From: Alphaproteobacteria bacterium | GTDB lineage: Bacteria; Pseudomonadota; Alphaproteobacteria; Micavibrionales; UBA2020 | NCBI GenBank assembly: GCA_027483355.1 | Contig: JAIXUW010000292.1 | Location: 138,308-202,307 of the forward strand | Direction: 5' to 3' | Length of the DNA stretch: 64,000 bases | Part shown: piece after piece, positions 12,270-51,600 of the stretch | Position numbering within the stretch: the first letter of the stretch is position 1 | Layout: the number at the start of each line of letters is the position of its first letter | Program-made: the position numbers and the translations under genes | The notes under the pieces: model-generated | Seen by the model: only the letters and a program-made list of their open reading frames with translations | What the model was told of the DNA's origin: nothing | Database searches by the model: none

Positions 12270-12470
12270 ATGGAGGCGTTCGGGTGGATCTTTCTTACTG
12301 TGCTTTTCATATTAAGCATTGGTTTCTGTGTGTGGATACTAATCTACTTTTGGAAAGGTAAAATAATAATCCAACCGCGGTGGCCATTTTTAGTCATCGA
12401 GCCGCTGGATCGCAACGAATATTTCCCACTTTCTGTTTATGACAATCCGAATGCTCAAGAAATAGCATAG
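12270..12470 (+). CDS. possible small TM protein (66 aa)
   Basis: ATG ORF with one strong hydrophobic segment (WIFLTVLFILSIGFCVWILIYFW). Short, with no other support. Confidence 0.35.
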   Translation: MEAFGWIFLTVLFILSIGFCVWILIYFWKGKIIIQPRWPFLVIEPLDRNEYFPLSVYDNPNAQEIA

Positions 12471-12658
12471 CCAATTTAGGAGATAAGATTCAAGCCGGCG
12501 CGCCGCTTCGCGCTGCGCTACGCAAAGCAGCGCTGCTTGGGTCCCTGCTCGGGGTGGCGCCGCCCACCAACGACGTTCGGTCCGGCGAGCGTTCTGGTTC
12601 AGTCTTCCTTTGCTCTCGCCTTTCTCATTATCCTTCACATCACTTCTCTGTTTTAACC

Positions 12659-13449
12659 ATGGCCGAATACGACAATTGGGACGAGGAGGACTACGGAACC
12701 CAGGTGCGCCGGTTTTTTTGTGCGCTTCTAAACTGTTCGGCGCCCGGGCGCTTACATTCTTTGTTCTCTCTTCACAGACATACAATGTTGCGGATCCTGA
12801 GTTCATTTTGCAATCGCACAACAATCTTTTGACCCTCGCAAACCCGCGCGCGGTGCGTTCATGTTTTTGTGCCGTTTGTTTTTTCCGGCCGCTTTGGCTC
12901 ACATTTTTCGCGCTCATAAAATTCTAGGACTTGTCTAATATTCGTTTGGAAGCTATCGTGCTCAATCCTAGCAATCAAACCGCTGGCTTGTGCATGCTAG
13001 CGCTCTACCGCGGTATTCAACTTTTCCGTGGCGCCTTCGAAGGCAACCTAGCCTTTGGCATTGAACTCTCTGTTACTTACCCATCTCTTCCCAACGTATT
13101 ATCTCGTACGGACCAGCAGCACACCACCGTTGCCAACATCAGAACTGCGATGCACGGTGCTCACATGGGCGAGATAGCCGAAAATTACATCTCCTCTCCG
13201 TTCGAGAATGTGAATCCTGTCAATCCATTTGATTATCAGCTGATTCGCTCTCATTACGACGATATGAGCTGCCGCGATCGTCTCTACGGCTACATTGTGA
13301 TTGCCAATCGCGACATGACTCCAAATGAGAAGGCTTTGGAAGAGGAATTTATGCATTCGACTTCCCGAATGAATTGCAGCAACCCTTTTGTTCACATTTG
13401 GGTCAACATGCACAATATTCAACGTTCTAATCGTCGTATTATCGTGTAA
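12659..13449 (+). CDS. three-exon gene, hypothetical protein (213 aa)
   Basis: Exons are 12659-12703, 12778-12852 and 12928-13449. ATG sits in an aaccATGG context. The introns start GTGCGC and GTGCGT, end CACAG and TCTAG, and keep the frame. Track ORF 12931..13449 starts at TTG, with no ATG until 12994. Product: MAEYDNWDEEDYGTQ|TYNVADPEF...ANPRA|DLSNIRLEAIV... Confidence 0.6.
12704..12777 (+). other. putative spliceosomal intron (74 nt, GT-AG)
   Basis: CAG|GTGCGC ... ttctctcttcacAG|ACA. T-rich interior with ttctaaa. Joins two in-frame exons. Confidence 0.6.
12853..12927 (+). other. putative spliceosomal intron (75 nt, GT-AG)
   Basis: GCG|GTGCGT ... cataaaattctAG|GAC. Joins exon 2 in frame to the ATG-less ORF 12931..13449. 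Confidence 0.6.
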
Positions 13450-13549: not shown

Positions 13550-15016
13550 ATGCAATATCAATCTATAGTATCCGCAACCCAAGATCAGATTCGCGAAATG
13601 GAATCTCCAAACCCCAAAACGTCGGATAACTCACTGATTCTCTGCTACGATGGCCGCGGCGGTCAATTAGGAGTTGCAGAAAAGGTGGCACTGCGAGCCG
13701 TATCAAACTGGTCTGAGTATGGGGATATTATTCTCCAGGTGGCCGGCGGGAAGAAGTTTGGTTTTTACCGCGAGCTACTCGTGGCTTCTACGCCGTTTTT
13801 TGAAGCTCTCCTTCGAAATTTAGATGATTCAAAATGGAAAGATACCAGTGGCAAGTATACGAACGCAAAGGGCGTGGATATACCCGTGCTCACCTTTCCC
13901 GATTGGGACGCCGACATTGTAAAGGCTATTTTGCACTACCTCGTGTGCGACAGATTTCGTTACGAGTGCACTGATCAAGTTTACCAAGGCGTGCCAAAAA
14001 AGGACCTTGTCTTGGGGAAATTACACGAAATGGCGGAATTGGCGGGAATGCTGCAGCTTTCTAGCCTCGTAGAAATTGTCAAACGTGCCGTGTACAATCT
14101 TGATCCGACTTTGGTGAACAAAATCAAACAGTACGAGGACATGTGCGAAGAAGCGGAGAAAATGAAGCAGGAACTTCCAGTTGAAACCGCAAAAGCTTTG
14201 TTTTCGCATTTCTACAACCTACTCATGTGGAGTAATTATGGCGCAAAGGTTTTGCTCATTACCTGCTATAAAACTGGCGCGTTTCGCAATCTTGCTGTTT
14301 TAGACAGCTCAGGCAAATCAAATGCCATCAACACGCGCAGGCGAACGATAGTAGAGTGCTATCAAGACCTATCTCGCGTAAACCTTTCATCGTTTTTCAA
14401 AAACAGCGACGACAGCGTAAACATCAAATTGCCCATTGGTGTAATGCGTGTCATCGGAAAGTCGGGGTCTGGAGAGCGTGTCGTGACATCTTTTCAAATC
14501 GACCCGCTGTTTCCGGGTATGCCAGCGTGCACGCTGAGCATTGATGGAGTGGTTTCATACAATTCTCTAGGGTTGAAAACAACCGCTGAACTTTCAACAC
14601 CGTTTTTAGAGTTATATTCTACTTACACTAAAACTTTACGGTTGAAGGTTACTTGGACTGCCTGTGGAGCATCTCGACACATGACCTACAATTTCCCAAC
14701 TTCGAACAATACACAGAAGGTAGAAACATCGCTCACTCTGCCTTGTACTAATATCTACGAAGTTTATTGTCAGTGGATATGGCAACCACGTCCAGATGTT
14801 TTGGCCGAGGATAACCGGTTAAACCAGTCAGACCTCCCACTTCGCATTTACAATTCTTCAGCGGTCAAATACAAACCCCGATTGTATTTACATATACCTC
14901 AACGGTGGACAGGAGAAAATTCATTAGGCGTGCTCGACAACGACGACGCGTCGGACAGCGACGACGATGCAGATTCAGACTCTACGAAAAGGAGGAAATT
15001 GAATGATGTCGAATAA
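13550..15016 (+). CDS. BTB/POZ domain protein (488 aa)
   Basis: The ATG at 13550 (cccccaaaATG) avoids overlap with the upstream gene. BTB-like core: GDIILQVAGGKKFGFYRELLVASTPFFEALL...ADIVKAILHYLVCDRF. C-terminal SDSDDDADSDS plus KRRKL. Confidence 0.75.
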   Translation: MQYQSIVSATQDQIREMESPNPKTSDNSLILCYDGRGGQLGVAEKVALRAVSNWSEYGDIILQVAGGKKFGFYRELLVASTPFFEALLRNLDDSKWKDTSGKYTNAKGVDIPVLTFPDWDADIVKAILHYLVCDRFRYECTDQVYQGVPKKDLVLGKLHEMAELAGMLQLSSLVEIVKRAVYNLDPTLVNKIKQYEDMCEEAEKMKQELPVETAKALFSHFYNLLMWSNYGAKVLLITCYKTGAFRNLAVLDSSGKSNAINTRRRTIVECYQDLSRVNLSSFFKNSDDSVNIKLPIGVMRVIGKSGSGERVVTSFQIDPLFPGMPACTLSIDGVVSYNSLGLKTTAELSTPFLELYSTYTKTLRLKVTWTACGASRHMTYNFPTSNNTQKVETSLTLPCTNIYEVYCQWIWQPRPDVLAEDNRLNQSDLPLRIYNSSAVKYKPRLYLHIPQRWTGENSLGVLDNDDASDSDDDADSDSTKRRKLNDVE

Positions 15017-15018
15017 AT

Positions 15019-15888
15019 TTACTTTGTACACACAATAATTTCATCGGACTGAAATTCGGTCCTACACAAAGGACATTCGAGACTGGCGCTCTTGTTAACC
15101 AGTTCCTCCGTGCACGAATGACAAAGCACTTTGTGCCCGCAATGAAGTGGCATGATAAATGCTCTATTTGTCAGGCATACGACGCAGCCCTCTTCTTCAG
15201 ATTCGTCATCGTTCAACAATACGTCTTTGCTCTTGTCCGTTAGAGGCTTTTTGACAGGCTCTTTGAACGCGTCCGGGCCAGGTTGTTCGTATTCGGAATC
15301 GTCGTCATTATTATTCCCATCATCGTTGCTAGTCTGCTGTACCGTCCAAGGCCCCAATTGAATTTGCCCTTCTGTACTCGATGTTGAAAAGCCATCGGGA
15401 GAAAGATGGTGGTGTTGCGCGTTCGAGTCGAAAACAACCGACCCAATGCTGTTGGAACTGCCTTGTACTTGTACTCGTATAGGAGTGCTACCAAAAAAGT
15501 TGTGGATTGTTCCAATCTTGTTTCCGTTGTGAAGCTCGACCGAAGTGCCCCATGGTTCTTGTTTTACAACGAGGCCCTGTGGCGTGGATGAACTGTCGTT
15601 CAAACCCGCGGCAGCTAAACCTTTGTAGCGTTTGCCATATAACTGGGCTCTGAGAGCGTATAATTTGCCTCTCTCCACGTATAATTTGGATCGCGCGTCG
15701 TAGATTCGAGAACGCTTATCGTACGCTCTGGCTCTCAAATCATACAAACTTTGTCTCTTTGACAAATCTTTTTCTATGCTTGCCAATGTGGAATACGCGG
15801 CGGCTTCGTCACTCATTGCACCTGCATCATCGTTAAGAGCGCAAATTTGATTTTGCAAATCGTCCAGTTTTTTGACCACCTCCTCCAT
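15019..15888 (-). CDS. C-terminal RING (C3HC4) finger protein with heptad-repeat region (289 aa)
   Basis: CVVCLTNRAFIMPLHCGHKVLCHSCTEELVNKSASLECPLCR fits C-x2-C..C-x-H-x3-C-x2-C..C-x2-C. Six consecutive heptads x[LAI]YxxRx at aa 47-88. Its stop is 2 nt from the stop of the convergent BTB gene. Confidence 0.85.
   Translation of the reverse strand: MEEVVKKLDDLQNQICALNDDAGAMSDEAAAYSTLASIEKDLSKRQSLYDLRARAYDKRSRIYDARSKLYVERGKLYALRAQLYGKRYKGLAAAGLNDSSSTPQGLVVKQEPWGTSVELHNGNKIGTIHNFFGSTPIRVQVQGSSNSIGSVVFDSNAQHHHLSPDGFSTSSTEGQIQLGPWTVQQTSNDDGNNNDDDSEYEQPGPDAFKEPVKKPLTDKSKDVLLNDDESEEEGCVVCLTNRAFIMPLHCGHKVLCHSCTEELVNKSASLECPLCRTEFQSDEIIVCTK
15025..15030. terminator. palindromic TGTACA at a convergent gene junction
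   Basis: 9 nt after the stop of 13550..15016. It lies inside the last codons (CTK) of the RING gene. Confidence 0.3.
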
Positions 15889-17330: not shown

Positions 17331-17595
17331 ATAAGCATAATGTAAAACCAAAACGCAAAAAGAGGTGATCGCGCCGCAAGATTGAGATATATTGGCAATA
17401 AACACATAGCGTAACGATTATACACACAATGTAAATTGCAAATGCCCGAGTTGTACGGTGTAAAACCTGAATGTACTGGGGTATATTGTAACAGATGTTC
17501 CATTTGAATAACGAAGAATCTCGCATGCTGTGCACCTCCGGAATACAGACCGGATTTGGGGCCTTTTGTACCGCCCGGGACCCAGCCAATTTTTT

Positions 17596-18276
17596 TTGTG
17601 GTCTCGCGCGTTTGCTTGGTATTTTGTCATCGCACTAAAAAAAATGTAAAAGGAAGCGTTGCCGTGCCTGCGATAATGATGCAATTGCGTGTAAATTAGC
17701 GCCATTCTACCCCCTGTTTCAATCTGTGGTTCCGGTTCTGATTTTATCACAAGTGCACCCGCGGGTGTCTGCAGCGTTCTGTGTGACGTGTACTCAACTA
17801 AACAATGCACTCACTGTCGTGTAGGCTCCAGGGCCAATAGAGAACACTGCAAAGCCGGCACCGCCGACTCGACGGACGCTTCCGATTTTCTTTTGCGGTC
17901 TCGCGCCGTTTTAAACCACCCTGGGCGTTGCGCGGAAAACATTGTGGTCTCGCGCGTTGGGTTGAAATTTTGCTAACATGTCCAAAAAATGCAAAAGAAG
18001 CGTTGCCAGCTTAACTATCAAAGTACCTTGCAGCTAGTCACACAGCGCCGCACCTAGGATTCTTACAGCTTCTGTAGTTCGCCGCAAGGCCTCTTTCCGT
18101 GTCTACACGACCAAAGAGACTTTGGATTTTTTGTACAATTCTTTCTTACAACGTATTTGCATACGAGGACAATGCACTACACGGGATGCTAGACCGGCAG
18201 ACGCTTCCAGTTTTGATTTCGGAATCGCCTCCTTTTGAACAAGCCTCGGCGGCGCGCAAAAACATTGTGGTTTCGC
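17596..18276. repeat. degenerate ~340-bp tandem duplication punctuated by GTGGTCTCGCGCG
   Basis: Unit A 17596-17663 vs 17942-18007 (TTGTGGTCTCGCGCGTT...AAAAAATG[TC]AAAAG.AAGCGTTGCC, about 75% identity by eye). Unit B 17875-17953 vs 18200-18276 (GACGCTTCC...AAAACATTGTGGT[CT]TCGC). A variant 13-mer lies at 17895, and an inverted GTCTCGCGCC at 19461-19470. Confidence 0.75.
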
Positions 18277-18330
18277 AGGAGTAGTCGCGGTTCAAGTTTT
18301 TTATGATATACACGAGAGCAGGAGACACGT

Positions 18331-45985: not shown

Positions 45986-48649
45986 ATGGAGAACCGGCTG
46001 CGTGCCAACGCTCCCGCGCTCTCTCCGCAAGAAATTATCGCGCAAACGGTTGCCGTAGCTACATCTAGAGTTGCTAGTGCACCAAGTCCCCAGGAGTTAA
46101 ACAATGCCTACGCTAATACGATCATGGAAATTGCCAATAACGGTCCTATTGCCGTTGCTTCAATGACAAGTGCACTTTCAGATGCCGATAGATTGAAATT
46201 AAGAGCTATGATATCAGGTCCCGTAGAAGGCTCGCCTGAATCTGTAGTGGAATCGGCAAAGAAGTTGAAAGAGCCCACCGCTACTATTCCGCTGGCATTT
46301 TTTTCGGGCGTCCGCGATAACGCCGCCGCGTTGCACACAAGTAGCATGTCCACATCTATTACTACTCATCATACATTGCAAAATGAAGCTCTTACATTAT
46401 GCGGTGCGCGACAAGACGCGAGCGCGGCGGCTGCACCCGGCGCGAAAAAGGTGAATAATGCAAGCAGAACTGCTCTTGCGTGGAGATATGGATCTGGAGG
46501 TCCAGCCGCTGAAAGAATTCATAAAAAGGCCATGACGGCGACAGATAAGAAATTAGTGCAGGGAACGACAACGGGCGCCGGAGCCGCCGTACCCGAATAT
46601 GAGATTCAGCCTCCTGCCGAAAAGCAAAGAAAAATGTCCGAGTTGAATCCCATGAAGATTTATACAACTGCGGTTCAGAAACTGAAGGACAACGAGCGGT
46701 TAGGATTCGCCGATATCACATCGACTCTTCCATCAGTGTCGTCCAAGCAATCTCAATTGGTGAGTCCTCACGACCCGCTCACGGGAATATCACACAACGT
46801 GGTTCGCCTGGATAGCGATCTTTTGAACTCCATGGTCACCAATACGGCTACTGTGAACACGACAAACAAGTTTTTGTCTCAGGCCATTGAAGACGCTGGC
46901 TACGCTCATGTGGAGCATATAGCTATGGATGTGGATGCCGCGGATAAGACCGCCGAGGACGCTCGAGCCGTCGCTACGCTTCCAAAGCAGCAAAAGTTTT
47001 CCCGAAAGCGCAAGGGAATGACTTCGATCGAGGACGACGACGTACCTATGTATTACCCGGGTATGGAGATTACTGGAACGACCAAAGTGACTGTGGATCC
47101 TACTATTTTGGAGAATCCCGATATCGCGGAGCGGAACAAAAAGGCGATTGCGAGAAAGGATTTGGTTCAAATGCAAAACGAAGACAGTGACGTACTGACA
47201 GCGCCATTTCGAAATTCCAGCGGTCCCGCCGGTCTGGTGCCCTACGTTCTTTCGCGTACTAATCTGGATACTGTCCGAACGGCCGTGTCCGCTATTGCCG
47301 ACGTGTTGAGCGTGCTCTTTTCGGGACATGTGGCGAACAACTACGTGGACGACGCCACGATCAAGCTCACTGGAATTTCCATTCAGGACGCTAAGTATTG
47401 TGCCGAGAAAAGGCATCCCGAGATCCCACTCGTTCAATTTCCTACTATTATGCGCAAACGAATGAGGAATCTGTTCGAAAACGACAATTTGTTCAAGGCG
47501 CTTGGACTCGAAAAGGACATTGAGACACGCCTTCGTGCTCAAGGGATCGATGGTCATGTCGGATACAATGTAGAGTCAGTGGACTATATTATGAGGGACA
47601 TTGGAATGAAATCCAATCACGCTGAGTCCGACAACATGCAAAGACTGGCCGCTGTTGCTCAGAGAGGAGCCATATTCGCCGCATTTGAAGAACAGCAAAA
47701 GAGACTTGCGAGCAAAGGTTATGATCACTATGGCAGTAAGAAAAAATGGCACGTGTCCGAGCAATTGGCGGCTGCCAAGGCGGAATCGGCTACCAAGTAC
47801 CCTGACATGGAAGTCGTGACAATGGCTCACATTACCAAGTATTGTATTGAGCATACGTTGGAGGATCTGAAAAGAACGGGAAAACGTTTGTGCAAGAACG
47901 GAGCGTCGTGTTGGTGTAAGCAAATCGCAAACACTCGCTATCCTCGAATGTTCAACGGGCCTCCGGCATTCCCCAAGGCAGCCGATGTCGACAAATCCAT
48001 TGCGGGGAACATACCTATGAATTTCATCACCAAGATATCTATGGATCAACACGTTTATTTCGGCACAGCGGCGCAGTGGTTCTCGAGACCCCAGCTCATG
48101 GCCAATCTCAATGCAGTTGCCGAATCCAATGCGCAGACTCGAGCCAACTTGGGGTTTGTCGGAGTAGAGTTCCTAACCCCAAAACAAGAACAGGAACTCG
48201 CTGAATGGTGGGCCCAGTTCAAAGATGACGAGATTTTCGGAATAAGCATAGATCCACGTCGCAATTTCAACCAGCTCTGCTACTTGTGCGAAATGTTCAG
48301 AGTCACATCGGAGCATGTCATGCATGTCAATCAGCGTGTTCCCGACGAAATGCAAAACGTGGACCCTAGAACACGAGACTACTTGCCGCTCAACACATTC
48401 CAAGTGCTCCATTCGATCCCTGGAGAGTACGACAAGGATGCCTTGATCGAGACGTCGATCGGCGCAGGCGTTTCGGGCAGCACTCGACTTCCATCAGGTC
48501 GAAGTCTCGTCGTGGGCCCCTTCCCCGAATTCAGATTGAGTAATTTCGAGCTCTCGGTCATATCCATTCCAAACGAGGACGGCGTTGAAACCACGCGTCG
48601 CATCGTCAAGCAACCCGGAATGGATTTTCGATTGTCCTCAGTAATGTAA
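45986..48649 (+). CDS. hypothetical protein (887 aa)
   Basis: gaaaaaaaATG start. Long ORF. No domain recognised. Confidence 0.85.
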   Translation: MENRLRANAPALSPQEIIAQTVAVATSRVASAPSPQELNNAYANTIMEIANNGPIAVASMTSALSDADRLKLRAMISGPVEGSPESVVESAKKLKEPTATIPLAFFSGVRDNAAALHTSSMSTSITTHHTLQNEALTLCGARQDASAAAAPGAKKVNNASRTALAWRYGSGGPAAERIHKKAMTATDKKLVQGTTTGAGAAVPEYEIQPPAEKQRKMSELNPMKIYTTAVQKLKDNERLGFADITSTLPSVSSKQSQLVSPHDPLTGISHNVVRLDSDLLNSMVTNTATVNTTNKFLSQAIEDAGYAHVEHIAMDVDAADKTAEDARAVATLPKQQKFSRKRKGMTSIEDDDVPMYYPGMEITGTTKVTVDPTILENPDIAERNKKAIARKDLVQMQNEDSDVLTAPFRNSSGPAGLVPYVLSRTNLDTVRTAVSAIADVLSVLFSGHVANNYVDDATIKLTGISIQDAKYCAEKRHPEIPLVQFPTIMRKRMRNLFENDNLFKALGLEKDIETRLRAQGIDGHVGYNVESVDYIMRDIGMKSNHAESDNMQRLAAVAQRGAIFAAFEEQQKRLASKGYDHYGSKKKWHVSEQLAAAKAESATKYPDMEVVTMAHITKYCIEHTLEDLKRTGKRLCKNGASCWCKQIANTRYPRMFNGPPAFPKAADVDKSIAGNIPMNFITKISMDQHVYFGTAAQWFSRPQLMANLNAVAESNAQTRANLGFVGVEFLTPKQEQELAEWWAQFKDDEIFGISIDPRRNFNQLCYLCEMFRVTSEHVMHVNQRVPDEMQNVDPRTRDYLPLNTFQVLHSIPGEYDKDALIETSIGAGVSGSTRLPSGRSLVVGPFPEFRLSNFELSVISIPNEDGVETTRRIVKQPGMDFRLSSVM

Positions 48650-48663
48650 ACACTTCATTTGGA

Positions 48664-51600
48664 ATGCGAAAGCTTTCCCTCTTTCATCATCCTAAACGAT
48701 CCAACAACTCGGCTGCGTTTGAGACGCGTGTCGGATCTCACTCGTGGCGGGCGCTGGCCATGAATGATGTGAAAGAAGGATACAAAGCCTTTCCGCTCCA
48801 CGATGCAAAGGCGCGATTGGCCAGACAGCAGGGTTGGTACGTCTGGTTGGCTCGCGCTCAAGTGTCCGGGCAAATCTCCACGCCTGATACGTGGATTGAT
48901 AAAACACGATATGTGTTAAGCGACATTGTCTGCAATTTGAACGATATTTCCGATACTACCTTCCGGGATCCTATTCCCACATCAATCACGGGTACGCTCA
49001 TGCCCTGGGATGCGCTAGCGACAGCGTGTCGCGCGTACATGATCGACGAAGAACAATTTGAGAATATACTACGTTTGGAAGAGTACAAGCCACTTGGATC
49101 CGTGATCGGAGTTGGCGAAACGGAATTGCAGCTGTCGGAGAGTGCAAACGCACCGCCCCTGGCATTACTGAGGAAATTTTTCATGCAAAAGCATGCAATA
49201 CCTCTTATCAATTACATAGAAAAAACGTCTATTGTGTCTCCAAGTCAAAGCAAGACTAAATACGCCTCGGCGCATTTGGACTTTGACAAGATTGAAGATG
49301 ACATGAGACAAAACTACCCTTATCCTTATATGGACCCGGGATCATGGAACATTAATCATTTCAAAGTTCCTACCTCTGTGTTCGAGCAAGAACCGTCCAT
49401 TGACGATCTTGTCATTTGGGAATCCGTTCTATGCCCTGTCATGTCCACATACAGATACTTGGAGAGTCTAGTACACAGCGTGAATCAGTGGCCGTCCTAT
49501 AGATACATTGGTCTTGAATACAACGCCGAGAATGACTCGTGGAAGGCTCCAGTCAACTACTCAAGGCAAAAGAAACTGGCCCCGATATCCCTATTGCAAT
49601 TGCAATATCAGTTTACGATTCCCGTGCCTCGATCGCTGCATGATTTACAGGGCGTAGACGAAATAGCTCTGTGCGACTTGTGGGTCAATGGATTTTCATG
49701 GATGGCAACTGTTCTATGGAGACTCTATCATTTGCACAGGTTGAAAGCTGTTGCCGTGAGACCCGACGACCGATGTCTGCTCCATGCCACTCAACTCGTG
49801 ATCGATTCTCATATCCCGCTCTACGCGTACAATGTGAAACACGGAACGTTTCATGACGCTTTCCATTTACAAAAGGTGCCCTTTTCGACATTTGACGGCC
49901 CCACGCCCAAATCCAAGCATCCGTTGGCACCTGCGGCTCTCAACGAGTACGGTGGAATTTACGGCAAGCCTAAGCGACACGAACATGTCAAATCGACTCA
50001 ATATCCACGAGTTTTCATGTTGTACCCAGGAATGACGCGCTGGCTAGTCACTGTCGAAGAATCGCCGTCTCTCATCCCGGCATTGAACATGAGCGGGTTC
50101 TTCTTCCGGTACTCGAGCGAGCATACGGCTATTCAAAACTGGGACGATCCTAAAACGGCATTTATTACTCTCATGGTCTCCAAAATGAGCCAATTCCGAA
50201 GTCGCTTGCGAGCCGACGATACTACGGCCAAGCATTGTTTTACAAAGCATCCTATTATGGCATCTATCTTGCTCAATTACAAACATATATTCGAACTGGG
50301 AAACACGCACGGAGAAAGCAAGAGGCCCGCGTTCCAAGATCGGATCAGACTCTGGTTGACTTACAAGGACCCCGAGACCGCTCCTAGAAGCATCGAATGG
50401 GTCGTCGATCATTGTTTTAGAGATTTCAGATACGCTACTCGATTTGCAATGCACGAAATGATGTGCTACTACATCAATCTGATTCCTGCGTTCAAGCAAT
50501 GCATGCTGTCTCATCCTCATCAGGGAGTCATGTACAAAGAGTGGATGACAACGGTCAAAAACGCAGCTCAGTTTCACAGGAATCGATTGGAAACGATTCC
50601 GCTTCTACCGGGAGCGCCCAAGTCGACGGTTATTCTCTACAATGATATTTTACTGTGCAGACTCTACAATGCGACGAACAAGCACTTGAATTTTTGCTGC
50701 CACTACGGCACGTTTAGCGATGTTCTCGAAACGTTTTTTCCCAAAGAGTATAGTTCTCTATTGTCACGCGTGGAAGTCACACTAAGAGCGTTTAGCAAAG
50801 ACCACGCCCCGGATACGGAATTGAAGAATCAGATCGAGGCCAAGTGCAATCAACTCAAGCAACTGGCCGAGCTTTCCAGGTCGCGTCACACAAGATTTGA
50901 CTACGATGACGATCTATTTGATTCAGAAAGCGGATTTAACGCGCTTGGAAACGCTGGCAATGGTTCAAATGGAAACGGCGGTAACGACGAAGATGACGAG
51001 GATGCCGCCCAAAAGGAGCACGCCGTGTTTGAACAGTTTCACGACGACACATTGTACACGAACGAAGGTGATATCGATTTAGATGTGCTGGCAGACATGC
51101 TCTTGACGTCTAATGAAGCTGGGAAATCCGGCCAGCCTGCTACTGCGGCGGCAGATTCGACGACTCCAAACCAGGCCGAGTCTTCAAGTTCATCAAAATC
51201 CGAGCAGACTGGGCCCGAACTGTATTGCTACTCCAAAGCCGAAATGCGTGCCATTCACCGCATTCTGTCAGACAACATTCTTCACATTCCAATTTTGGAT
51301 GATCCTGGAAACGAACATATATCCGAAATGTTCAATGCCATGGTGTGGACCACGCAGCGCTATCACGGAGCACGTCAGACTCTGCCACTCAAGCTCTTAC
51401 TCTTGTTCGGAATGAGTTTCCAAATGCTCATTCGCTTGTACATGATCTTTATCTACTATGAACAGGCTTTGCCGTACCACAGAATCAGTGGCATGATCAA
51501 GAGATTGATTCAAGACTACCCACAGGACTGCGCTCTCTTGTGGCGATATCTCCAGTTGCTCAAAATGTTCTCCACAGAGCAAGCCATTCTTTTGCCGGCT

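What the first reader, a model, noticed from the sequence alone, without database searches (positions are those of the whole stretch)
12659..13449. Second intron-containing gene: 3 exons with two 74-75 nt GT-AG introns
ORF 12931..13449 has no ATG at its 5' end. An ATG in an aaccATGG context at 12659 opens a 15-codon exon ending CAG|GTGCGC. A 25-codon exon (12778-12852) ends GCG|GTGCGT. Both introns end in YAG and all junctions are in frame. Intron length and donor type (GTRYGY) match the methyltransferase introns 41 kb away, so this is one consistent splicing grammar rather than chance. The 213-aa product is an ORFan.
Basis: seen in the sequence. Interest (0 to 1): 0.6.

Follow-up and report, generated by a model that had tools for sequence, protein, structure and literature searches.

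The report
Spliced three-exon orphan viral gene
A small gene of unknown function, in what looks like a large marine DNA virus genome, is very probably interrupted by two short host-type introns; this kind of gene is already known, but it implies the genome is read in a host nucleus.

Summary
ATG 12659 opens a 15-codon exon. A 74-nt intron (GTGCGC…CACAG), a 25-codon exon, a 75-nt intron (GTGCGT…TCTAG) and ORF 12928-13449 follow, all in frame, giving 213 aa.

No transcript or homologue could be found, so the splicing is inferred. The evidence for it is strong:
- Two methyltransferase introns 41 kb away are proven by an intronless homologue. They share length (70, 74 nt), GTRYGY donor, CTCAC branch and YAG acceptor with the target introns.
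- Both mini-exons, and the 22 codons before the first internal ATG, score as coding in the proposed frames (combined p ≤ 1e-4). Both introns score as non-coding.
- 0 of 2000 shuffled upstream regions gave an equally good model.
- ATG 12659 is the first ATG after the upstream gene, in an A(-3)/G(+4) context.

The protein is a strict orphan: only itself among 1.84 billion representatives, no Pfam match, no usable fold. It has one lysine in 213 residues.

The window is dense, nearly all orphan genes, with a 71%-identical Tara Oceans relative. That points to a nuclear-expressed large DNA virus or virus-like element.

Verdict: a real, probably unannotated spliced gene. It is a new member of a known kind, of modest interest.

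The parts
12471..12658 (+). Intergenic leader or promoter region of the gene. It is free of ATG, and its last ~60 nt (12600-12658) are pyrimidine-rich.
   Evidence: there is no ATG between the upstream gene's stop (12470) and 12659; the richest 40-nt window is 82% pyrimidine, in the top 0.7% of background. Known gene starts in the window show only a mild enrichment of this kind (p=0.036).
12659..12703 (+). Exon 1: start codon in aaccATGG context plus 14 codons (MAEYDNWDEEDYGTQ), ending CAG before the donor.
   Evidence: Coding score is +8.5 bits in this frame and negative in the other two. Against stop-free wrong-frame windows, p=0.0005.
12704..12777 (+). Intron 1: 74 nt, phase 0, donor GTGCGC, branch-like CTTAC at 12751-12755 (A 23 nt from the 3' end), CT-rich tract, acceptor CAG. 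Its only AG is the terminal one. T content is 38%.
   Evidence: The read-through frame scores -5.0 bits, in the bottom 0.1% of true coding windows. The length is not a multiple of 3, so retention shifts the frame and gives a 57-aa product.
12778..12852 (+). Exon 2: 25 codons (TYNVADPEFILQSHNNLLTLANPRA).
   Evidence: Coding score is +6.0 bits in frame and -8.9/-6.6 in the other frames; p=0.04.
12853..12927 (+). Intron 2: 75 nt, phase 0, donor GTGCGT, branch-like CTCAC at 12898-12902 (A 26 nt from the 3' end), acceptor TAG. Its only AG is the terminal one. T content is 44%. If retained, its terminal TAG is an in-frame stop.
   Evidence: The read-through frame scores -4.2 bits, in the bottom 0.3% of true coding windows.
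12928..13449 (+). Exon 3: 173 codons plus stop TAA (13447-13449). The first 22 codons (12928-12993) lie upstream of the first in-frame ATG.
   Evidence: The 22 codons before ATG 12994 score +6.1 bits (p=0.03) and the rest +24 bits. The database's own call for this gene (P0001, 163 aa) starts at GTG 12958, which is a prokaryote-style start.
53833..55048 (-). Internal control: a five-exon membrane-anchored O-methyltransferase gene. Exons are 55048-54945, 54871-54736, 54667-54548, 54477-54210 and 54135-53833. Introns are 54944-54872 (73 nt, GTATGT), 54735-54668 (68 nt, GCATGT, GC-AG), 54547-54478 (70 nt, GTGTGT) and 54209-54136 (74 nt, GTACGC).
   Evidence: Searches give the model. MycE and demethylmacrocin O-methyltransferase structures align without a gap across the exon 4/5 junction; the intronless homologue P0002 (54% identity, residues 2-310) is one ORF in L001, and the tblastx segment ends coincide with exon ends 54548, 54480-54211 and 54136-53831. 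This proves the 70-nt and 74-nt introns.
57608..57685 (-). A further candidate intron of the same grammar: 78 nt, GTGCGC…CTCAC…GTGTAG. It would join a 5' exon (ATG 57764, MSGMDTTPAIEGGSGTAQNVDLMSVD) in frame to ORF 55977-57644.
   Evidence: It is not validated; an unspliced start at ATG 57629 is also possible.

Best explanation
This is a protein-coding gene of a nuclear-expressed large DNA virus, or virus-like element, of a marine eukaryote.

Proposed mechanism, all steps inferred:
- Host RNA polymerase II transcribes it from the ATG-free, pyrimidine-rich leader upstream of 12659.
- The host major (U2-type) spliceosome removes two short introns, 12704-12777 and 12853-12927.
- Each intron is recognised through a GTGCGY donor, a CTYAC branch site 23-26 nt from the 3' end, a T-rich tract, and the first downstream YAG.
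- Ribosomes then start at the first ATG (12659, A at -3 and G at +4) and make a 213-aa, 24-kDa, acidic, soluble protein.

Splicing is obligatory for the full-length protein. Retaining intron 1 shifts the frame and gives 57 aa. Retaining intron 2 ends translation at the intron's own terminal TAG after 64 aa.

Shown here: exact signals and frames, coding statistics, the reality of the same intron grammar in the same genome, and orphan status. Inferred: transcription, actual splicing, the virus and nuclear setting, and function.

The protein's function is unknown. Its single lysine in 213 residues, and its position next to BTB and RING genes, make a role within or against the host ubiquitin system my best guess. 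That guess is weakly supported.
For: 1. Exact signals and frames are as described.
2. Spliceosomal introns exist in this genome. The 70-nt and 74-nt methyltransferase introns are proven by the intronless homologue P0002/L001 and by PDB homologues.
3. The target introns share that grammar. A scan whose rules came only from the methyltransferase introns picks up both target introns. That scan finds 6 non-training hits in the window and 4.7 hits per shuffled window. A stricter scan that adds T-richness finds 6 hits against 2.0 expected: the two target introns, two methyltransferase introns, and two others.
4. All candidate introns are 68-78 nt long and 38-44% T, against 26% T for the window.
5. 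Coding scores: exon 1 +8.5 bits (p=0.0005), exon 2 +6.0 (p=0.04), the 22 codons before ATG 12994 +6.1 (p=0.03), combined p ≤ 1e-4. Both introns fall in the bottom 0.1-0.3% of true coding windows.
6. Only two in-frame ATG-started models exist, and this is the better one. None of 2000 shuffled upstream regions reaches its score.
7. ATG 12659 is the first ATG after the upstream gene's stop, in a good context. ATG 12994 is the fourth ATG and has T at -3 and C at +4. Many other genes in the window have an A-rich sequence before ATGG.
8. Each intron contains no AG except its terminal one.
9. Virus-like setting: about 45 tightly packed genes on both strands, and only 5 of the 41 products scanned (the target, 39 other window ORFs and the spliced methyltransferase) have a Pfam match. 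There are no tRNA or Rfam matches. A collinear Tara Oceans scaffold shares 71% nucleotide identity.
Against: - There is no RNA or protein evidence.
- There is no homologue at all, so no comparative test of the junctions is possible.
- The donor hexamer GTRYGY is not depleted in coding sense strands, so it is weak on its own.
- Loose splice rules give in-frame models in 28% of shuffles.
- Exon 2 is 75 nt, so skipping it also stays in frame.
- Structure prediction failed (pLDDT 32.6), so it cannot say whether exons 1-2 belong to the fold.
- The only public protein call for this locus (P0001) is unspliced.
- The virus and nuclear setting is an inference. No hallmark virus gene lies in the window.
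Confidence: 0.8

Rival explanations
1. The gene is unspliced. Translation starts inside the ORF, at ATG 12994 (151 aa) or, as in the database call, at GTG 12958 (163 aa). The upstream 'exons' are chance open segments in a leader.
For: The only public protein for the locus, P0001, is the 163-aa GTG-start call. No transcript evidence exists. In-frame spliced models arise in 28% of shuffles under loose rules.
Against: - The 22 codons upstream of ATG 12994 are coding-like (+6.1 bits, p=0.03), and exons 1 and 2 are too (p=0.0005 and 0.04).
- ATG 12994 has a poor context and is preceded by three other ATGs, the first in a strong context.
- A GTG start is not expected in a genome whose genes carry spliceosomal introns.
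- Two introns matching the validated grammar sit exactly where they are needed.
Confidence: 0.1
2. The gene is spliced differently. One option is a single 224-nt intron (12704-12927) that skips exon 2 and gives 188 aa. The other is the second in-frame model, with a GC donor at 12846 and an acceptor at 12971. The three-exon form would then be minor or absent.
For: Exon 2 is exactly 75 nt, so skipping it keeps the frame. The enumerator finds the 12846-12971 alternative. Exon 2's coding signal is the weakest of the three (p=0.04).
Against: - All validated and candidate introns of this genome are 68-78 nt. Introns of 224 or 126 nt would be outliers.
- The alternative model removes coding-like sequence and scores 14.2 bits against 19.3.
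- Exon 2's other frames are clearly non-coding.
Confidence: 0.06
3. There is no functional gene of this shape. The locus could be a decayed or non-expressed gene. The real feature could instead be the antisense ORF 12390-12917 (175 aa) or the long open + frame 12486-12927.
For: Both long open frames are unexpectedly stop-free even for the local low-A composition: p≈0.009 for the + frame and 0.004 for any - frame. The protein has no relative anywhere.
Against: - The antisense ORF scores 0.03 bits per codon, against about 0.16-0.2 for real genes, and it overlaps the upstream gene.
- The + frame has no ATG, and its leader part scores -2.9 bits over 57 codons.
- Exon 3 scores +30 bits in total and shows protein-level lysine avoidance alongside abundant asparagine, which indicates selection on the product.
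Confidence: 0.04

Closest known systems
Spliceosomal introns in mirusvirus genes (Mirusviricota; Nat Microbiol 2025, PMC12768974)
   Same: Both are canonical GT-AG introns with lengths peaking near 80 bp and lineage-specific branch consensus sequences such as CYSAC and WCTAAC. Both lie in large DNA virus genomes of marine protists that are inferred to be expressed in the nucleus. Here the introns are 68-78 nt with CTCAC, CTTAC or CTAAC branch motifs, and the genome has a Tara Oceans relative.
   Different: Membership of Mirusviricota is not shown, because no hallmark gene lies in the window. My rough count is about 7-10 introns in 64 kb, which lies between the low-density and high-density mirusvirus groups reported. 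That paper finds introns concentrated in virion genes, whereas this one is in an orphan gene.
Spliced orphan gene of a thraustochytrid skiavirus (gene-105I of 20888-skiaV; bioRxiv 10.64898/2026.07.28.741200)
   Same: Both are orphan genes of a large DNA virus carrying a spliceosomal intron. In that study the intron was used as evidence that the virus depends on the host nucleus.
   Different: That intron is backed by RNA-seq, and the present ones are not. Skiavirus genomes are 190-252 kb, whereas the contig recorded for this locus is 292 kb. No sequence relationship was found.
The intron-containing O-methyltransferase gene in the same window (MycE/TylE-type sugar O-methyltransferase fold, PDB 3ssm and 8ia9)
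   Same: It shares the strand-specific intron grammar (GTRYGY donor, CTNAC branch 22-33 nt upstream, first YAG, 68-74 nt, T-rich) and the CCATGGCC start context.
   Different: The methyltransferase has cellular and viral homologues that validate its splicing. It lies in an 8-kb block that is absent from the Tara relative. The target has no homologue.
Spliceosomal introns of chloroviruses and pandoraviruses (from my own knowledge, not tested here)
   Same: These are short GT-AG introns in nuclear-dependent giant viruses, processed by the host spliceosome.
   Different: They belong to different virus lineages with different G+C content. No sequence similarity was found.
Lysine-desert proteins, such as the cullin-RING ligase receptors VHL and SOCS1 (PMC10665810)
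   Same: Residues 1-174 of 213 contain no lysine. This meets both published definitions: at least 150 aa, or at least 50% of the sequence. Arginine content is normal. The neighbouring genes encode BTB and RING domains.
   Different: There is no sequence or fold similarity to any ubiquitin-system protein. The functional link is a guess based on composition and gene neighbourhood only.

Membership tests
U2-type (major) spliceosomal GT-AG intron | 5' splice site GT with G at +5 | tested here: met
   The donors are GTGCGC (12704) and GTGCGT (12853). The validated GTACGC donor of methyltransferase intron 4 has the same +4 C and +5 G.
U2-type (major) spliceosomal GT-AG intron | 3' splice site YAG that is the first AG downstream of the branch site | tested here: met
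   The acceptors are CAG (12775-12777) and TAG (12925-12927). Neither intron contains any other AG.
U2-type (major) spliceosomal GT-AG intron | Branch-site motif YTNAY about 18-40 nt upstream of the acceptor, followed by a pyrimidine-rich tract | tested here: met
   CTTAC has its A 23 nt from the 3' end, and CTCAC has its A 26 nt from the 3' end. T content is 38-44%. The validated introns have CTCAC at 22 and 33 nt.
U2-type (major) spliceosomal GT-AG intron | Removal restores one ATG-initiated reading frame whose exons look coding while the introns do not | tested here: met
U2-type (major) spliceosomal GT-AG intron | Spliced RNA observed, or a homologue aligning across the junction | not testable with these tools
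   There are no transcript data, and no homologue exists in any collection searched.
U12-type (minor) intron | Donor [AG]TATCCTT and branch TCCTTAAC | tested here: not met
   The donors are GTGCGC and GTGCGT, and neither intron contains a TCCTTAAC-like motif (read directly).
Self-splicing group I or group II intron | Conserved structured RNA core of hundreds of nucleotides | tested here: not met
   The introns are 74 and 75 nt. No Rfam family matches anywhere in the window.
Introner (intron-generating transposon) family | Many near-identical intron copies in one genome | tested here: not met
   The similarity between the two target introns is borderline (global score 9 against 1.9±4.0 in shuffles, p≈0.05). 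Neither resembles the other five introns. Only 64 kb of the genome could be examined.
Lysine-desert protein (definition of Szulc et al. 2023, PMC10665810) | A continuous lysine-free region of at least 150 aa or at least 50% of the sequence | tested here: met
   Residues 1-174 of 213 (82%) contain no lysine; the single lysine is at position 175. The other 36 window proteins have 2.5-9.6% lysine.
Mirusviricota genome | Hallmark virion module: HK97-fold capsid protein, triplex proteins, portal, protease, terminase | tested here: inconclusive
   No hallmark was detected among the window's proteins by Pfam or by PDB sequence search. However, the window covers only 64 of about 292 kb, and these proteins are hard to detect by sequence.

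The most novel reading that the evidence does not exclude
The product is a lysine-desert effector that works together with the adjacent BTB and RING genes as a viral ubiquitin-system module. Having almost no lysine, it would escape ubiquitination itself. Its expression would be gated by two obligatory splicing events, each of which yields a truncated peptide if it fails. Because the gene has no cellular relative, its two introns would have been gained inside the viral lineage rather than inherited with a captured host gene.
Probability: 0.1. Interest if true: 0.55.

Novelty: new member of a known kind. Interest (0 to 1): 0.3.

Why it matters
- The public gene call for this locus is wrong. It is a prokaryote-style GTG start that lacks 51 N-terminal residues. 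Gene callers that ignore introns will mis-annotate this genome.
- Together with the validated methyltransferase introns, the gene is evidence that this unclassified marine large DNA virus, or virus-like element, is transcribed where the host spliceosome operates, meaning the nucleus.
- The gene is an orphan, so its introns are candidates for intron gain within a viral lineage. This topic is currently under discussion for mirusviruses.
- None of this is a new principle.

Tried and rejected
- **Homologue searches for the spliced protein.** A word-indexed search of 5.8 billion proteins and a full HMMER search of 1.84 billion representatives returned only the locus itself. IMG/VR and JGI metagenome scans, Pfam, PDB sequences and PHROGs (one weak match at E=0.03) gave nothing usable. 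There is no paralogue in the window.
- **Structure prediction.** Single-sequence AlphaFold2 gave pLDDT 32.6, so no fold search was run.
- **Finding the source record or a syntenic relative.** Exact look-ups failed. The neighbouring BTB protein has no relative. Paper searches on contig size and run accession found nothing. One Tara scaffold, L002, is related but covers only 47.8-53.7 kb and 61.7-62.3 kb, not the target. A profile scan of IMG/VR found nothing.
- **Loose intron scans.** A loose regular-expression count is not enriched over shuffles. A flank-scoring scan was swamped by false positives inside ORFs.
- **Donor depletion.** GTRYGY is not significantly depleted in coding sense strands (57 against 65.9±7.4).
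- **Introner idea.** Rejected.
- **A fifth, 48-nt methyltransferase intron joining ORF 53318-53782.** Rejected. The homologue P0002 ends at the same KKW(K/Q) stop, and the Tara relative has that ORF as a separate gene with its own ATG.
- **Antisense ORF 12390-12917 and the open + frame 12486-12927 as genes.** Rejected on coding score. Their length remains mildly unexplained.
- **Pyrimidine-rich leader as a general promoter mark.** It is only weakly general (p=0.036).

Full report
**Observation**

- ATG 12659 lies in the context aaccATGG. It opens 15 codons (MAEYDNWDEEDYGTQ) that end CAG|GTGCGC.
- Positions 12704-12777 form a 74-nt segment ending CACAG.
- Positions 12778-12852 are 25 open codons (TYNVADPEFILQSHNNLLTLANPRA) that end GCG|GTGCGT.
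- Positions 12853-12927 form a 75-nt segment ending TCTAG.
- The ORF runs on from 12928 to the TAA at 13447-13449.
- The terminal TAG of the second segment is the stop codon that bounds the ORF upstream.
- The first in-frame ATG of the ORF is at 12994, 22 codons in.
- Joining the three pieces gives 213 residues.

**Does this genome splice at all?**

On the minus strand I built a five-exon model: 55048-54945, 54871-54736, 54667-54548, 54477-54210 and 54135-53833. Its introns are 73 nt (GTATGT), 68 nt (GCATGT, a GC-AG intron), 70 nt (GTGTGT) and 74 nt (GTACGC).

Three lines of evidence validate it:
- The spliced product aligns without a gap to the solved sugar O-methyltransferases MycE (3ssm) and demethylmacrocin O-methyltransferase (8ia9) over residues 122-310. 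This runs straight across the exon 4/5 junction, GGGVY|DFITDDGGH.
- A database homologue, P0002, is 54% identical over residues 2-310 and ends at the same KKW(K/Q) stop. It is encoded by one uninterrupted ORF on a 10-kb contig, L001.
- In tblastx, the matching segments end at window positions 54548, 54480/54211 and 54136. They are contiguous in L001 but separated by 70 and 74 nt in the window.

The 70-nt and 74-nt introns are therefore real. The 73-nt intron is supported because the homologue also has an N-terminal membrane anchor. The exact ends of the GC-AG intron are not verified.

The genome is thus expressed where a spliceosome is available.

**The grammar**

The validated and candidate introns share several properties:
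- a length of 68-78 nt;
- a G[T/C]RYGY donor;
- a CT[A/C/T]AC motif whose A lies 22-33 nt from the 3' end;
- the first downstream AG used as acceptor;
- 38-44% T, against 26% for the window.

The target introns fit all of these. Intron 1 has GTGCGC and CTTAC at 23 nt. Intron 2 has GTGCGT and CTCAC at 26 nt. Neither contains an internal AG, and T content is 38% and 44%.

Two scans tested this.
- A scan with rules taken only from the methyltransferase introns gives 9 hits in the window, against 4.7±2.7 in shuffles. Besides the three training introns, the hits are the two target introns, a 78-nt candidate at 57685-57608, and three hits inside or antisense to long ORFs.
- A stricter scan that also demands T-richness gives 6 hits against 2.0 expected.

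At about 4.7 chance hits per 128 kb, two hits within 224 nt, on the right strand, directly upstream of an ORF that lacks a start, are very unlikely by chance.

**Coding evidence**

I trained a codon model on 24 long ORFs of the window.

| Segment | Score in proposed frame | p against stop-free wrong-frame windows |
|---|---|---|
| Exon 1 | +8.5 bits | 0.0005 |
| Exon 2 | +6.0 bits | 0.04 |
| 22 codons of exon 3 before ATG 12994 | +6.1 bits | 0.03 |
| Exons 1+2 combined | +14.5 bits | 1e-4 |
| All three combined | +20.6 bits | no wrong-frame window reached it |

- The other two frames of each mini-exon are negative.
- The two introns, read in the frames that would continue the exons, score -5.0 and -4.2 bits. 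That is the bottom 0.1-0.3% of true coding windows.
- The frame shift needed between exon 1 and exon 2 falls exactly at the 74-nt intron.
- Enumerating all ATG-started models with permissive splice rules gives only two that join the ORF in frame.
- When the upstream 457 nt are dinucleotide-shuffled, 28% of shuffles allow some in-frame model. None of 2000 reaches the observed score.

**Translation start**

- The 188-nt intergenic leader after the upstream gene's stop (12470) contains no ATG.
- ATG 12659 is therefore the first ATG, with A at -3 and G at +4.
- ATG 12994 is the fourth ATG and has T at -3 and C at +4.
- Many genes in the window start in an A-rich context before ATGG.
- The methyltransferase uses agCCATGGCC, close to the target's aaCCATGGCC.
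- The leader is unusually pyrimidine-rich, in the top 0.7% of background. This trait is only weakly general among the window's genes.

**What the product is**

The protein is a strict orphan.
- The only hit among 5.8 billion clustered proteins and 1.84 billion HMMER-scanned representatives is P0001. That is this same locus called with a GTG start at 12958, giving 163 aa.
- Pfam, PDB and PHROGs give nothing usable.
- There is no paralogue in the window.
- Single-sequence structure prediction failed, with pLDDT 32.6.

The protein is 24.4 kDa with pI 5.2. It has no hydrophobic segment and a very acidic N-terminus.

One feature stands out. The protein has a single lysine (K175), whereas the other 36 proteins of the window have 2.5-9.6% lysine, mean 6.1%. 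Arginine (6.6%) is normal and asparagine (10.3%) is high. The bias is therefore against lysine itself, not against A-rich codons.

By the published definition this is a lysine desert, a trait linked to escape from ubiquitination and common in cullin-RING ligase receptors (PMC10665810). The next two genes encode a BTB domain and a RING finger. A role in or against the host ubiquitin system is my best functional guess, and I rate it low.

**Setting**

- The window carries about 45 closely packed genes on both strands.
- Only five of the 41 products scanned (the target, 39 other window ORFs and the spliced methyltransferase) have a Pfam match: BTB, RING, SET+MYND, RabGAP-TBC and the methyltransferase.
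- There are no tRNA genes and no Rfam matches.
- The contig recorded for P0001 is 292,368 bp.
- A Tara Oceans scaffold, L002, is collinear with 47.8-53.7 kb at about 71% nucleotide identity. Its copy of the 1535-aa protein is 70% identical.

This is best read as a large DNA virus, or virus-like element, of a marine eukaryote that depends on the host nucleus. I could not place the lineage. No hallmark gene lies in the window, and IMG/VR holds no relative.

**Comparison with what is known**

- Short canonical GT-AG introns peaking near 80 bp, with lineage-specific branch consensus sequences including CYSAC and WCTAAC, are reported for mirusviruses. That study counts 37,703 introns (PMC12768974).
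- A spliced orphan gene backed by RNA-seq is described in a thraustochytrid skiavirus.
- Spliceosomal introns are also known in chloroviruses and pandoraviruses (from my own knowledge).

The finding is therefore a further instance of a known phenomenon, in a gene that the public call has wrong.

**Rivals**

- *Unspliced gene starting at ATG 12994 or GTG 12958 (0.10).* Coding-like sequence upstream of 12994, the first-ATG rule and the matching introns argue against it.
- *Different splicing, such as skipping the 75-nt exon 2 (0.06).* This stays in frame but needs a 224-nt intron in a genome whose introns are 68-78 nt.
- *No functional gene, or the antisense ORF 12390-12917 (0.04).* The antisense ORF scores 0.03 bits per codon. 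Exon 3 shows clear coding signal and protein-level selection.

One loose end remains. The + frame 12486-12927 and the antisense frame are both stop-free more often than the local low-A composition predicts (p about 0.009 and 0.004). Neither looks coding.

**Verdict**

The finding is a new member of a known kind, and I score its interest at 0.3.

Noticed in passing
window 12659-13449 (product): The 213-aa product has one lysine (K175), while 36 other window proteins have 2.5-9.6% lysine. Arginine is normal and asparagine is 10%. It meets the published 'lysine desert' definition and sits next to BTB (13550-15013, +) and RING (15022-15888, -) genes.
   Followed up: partly
window 53800-61700 versus L002: The Tara Oceans relative L002 is collinear with 47832-53650 and then jumps to 61696-62284. 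An 8-kb block is therefore absent from that relative. The block holds the four-intron methyltransferase, gene 55288-55857, gene 55977-57644, a repeat field and gene 59050-61620. The intron-bearing genes found here cluster in this lineage-specific block.
   Followed up: partly
window 57608-57764 (-): A candidate 78-nt intron (57685-57608, GTGCGC…CTCAC…GTGTAG) would join a 5' exon starting at ATG 57764 (MSGMDTTPAIEGGSGTAQNVDLMSVD) in frame to ORF 55977-57644. The alternative unspliced start, ATG 57629, lies inside the candidate intron.
   Followed up: partly
window 58744-59050 (+): taccATGGACGCG|GTACGC is a three-codon ATG mini-exon followed by a donor. A 297-nt intron ending at the TAG (59047-59049) that bounds ORF 59050-61620 would be in frame. 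That ORF has 90 codons before its first ATG. This mirrors the target's 'bounding stop equals acceptor' arrangement, but the intron would be much longer than the others.
   Followed up: partly
window 19784-19922 (+): ATG 19784, followed by nine codons and a possible 112-nt GC-AG intron (19811-19922), joins in frame ORF 19896-21104, which has 50 codons before its first ATG.
   Followed up: no
window 58100-58450: A dense field of ACGTAACGTAAC and GTTACGTTAC motifs, in both orientations, lies inside a 1.4-kb non-coding gap (57644-59050). It could be a replication origin or a binding-site array.
   Followed up: no
window 17590-18290: A 1-kb gap without genes contains about three repeated units of the form TTGTGGTCTCGCGCG…AAAAAATG[T/C]AAAAG(G)AAGCGTTGCC.
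   Followed up: no
window 54668-54735 (-): Methyltransferase intron 2 can be made in frame only as a GC-AG intron (GCATGT…AAAAG, 68 nt) with an oddly placed CTAAC branch. Its exact ends are not verified, because the homologue differs in length there.
   Followed up: partly
window 12390-12927, both strands: Two long stop-free frames cover the leader, exons 1-2 and both introns: + frame 12486-12927 and - ORF 12390-12917. Both are rarer than the local low-A composition predicts (p about 0.009 and 0.004), yet both have null coding scores.
   Followed up: partly
L001 (Logan SRR10663366 contig, 10 kb): The contig carrying the intronless methyltransferase homologue is itself gene-dense (15 called genes, mostly without Pfam matches, plus MFS and GT92 genes, G+C 52%). 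It shares nothing else with the window. Whether it is cellular or viral is unknown.
   Followed up: no
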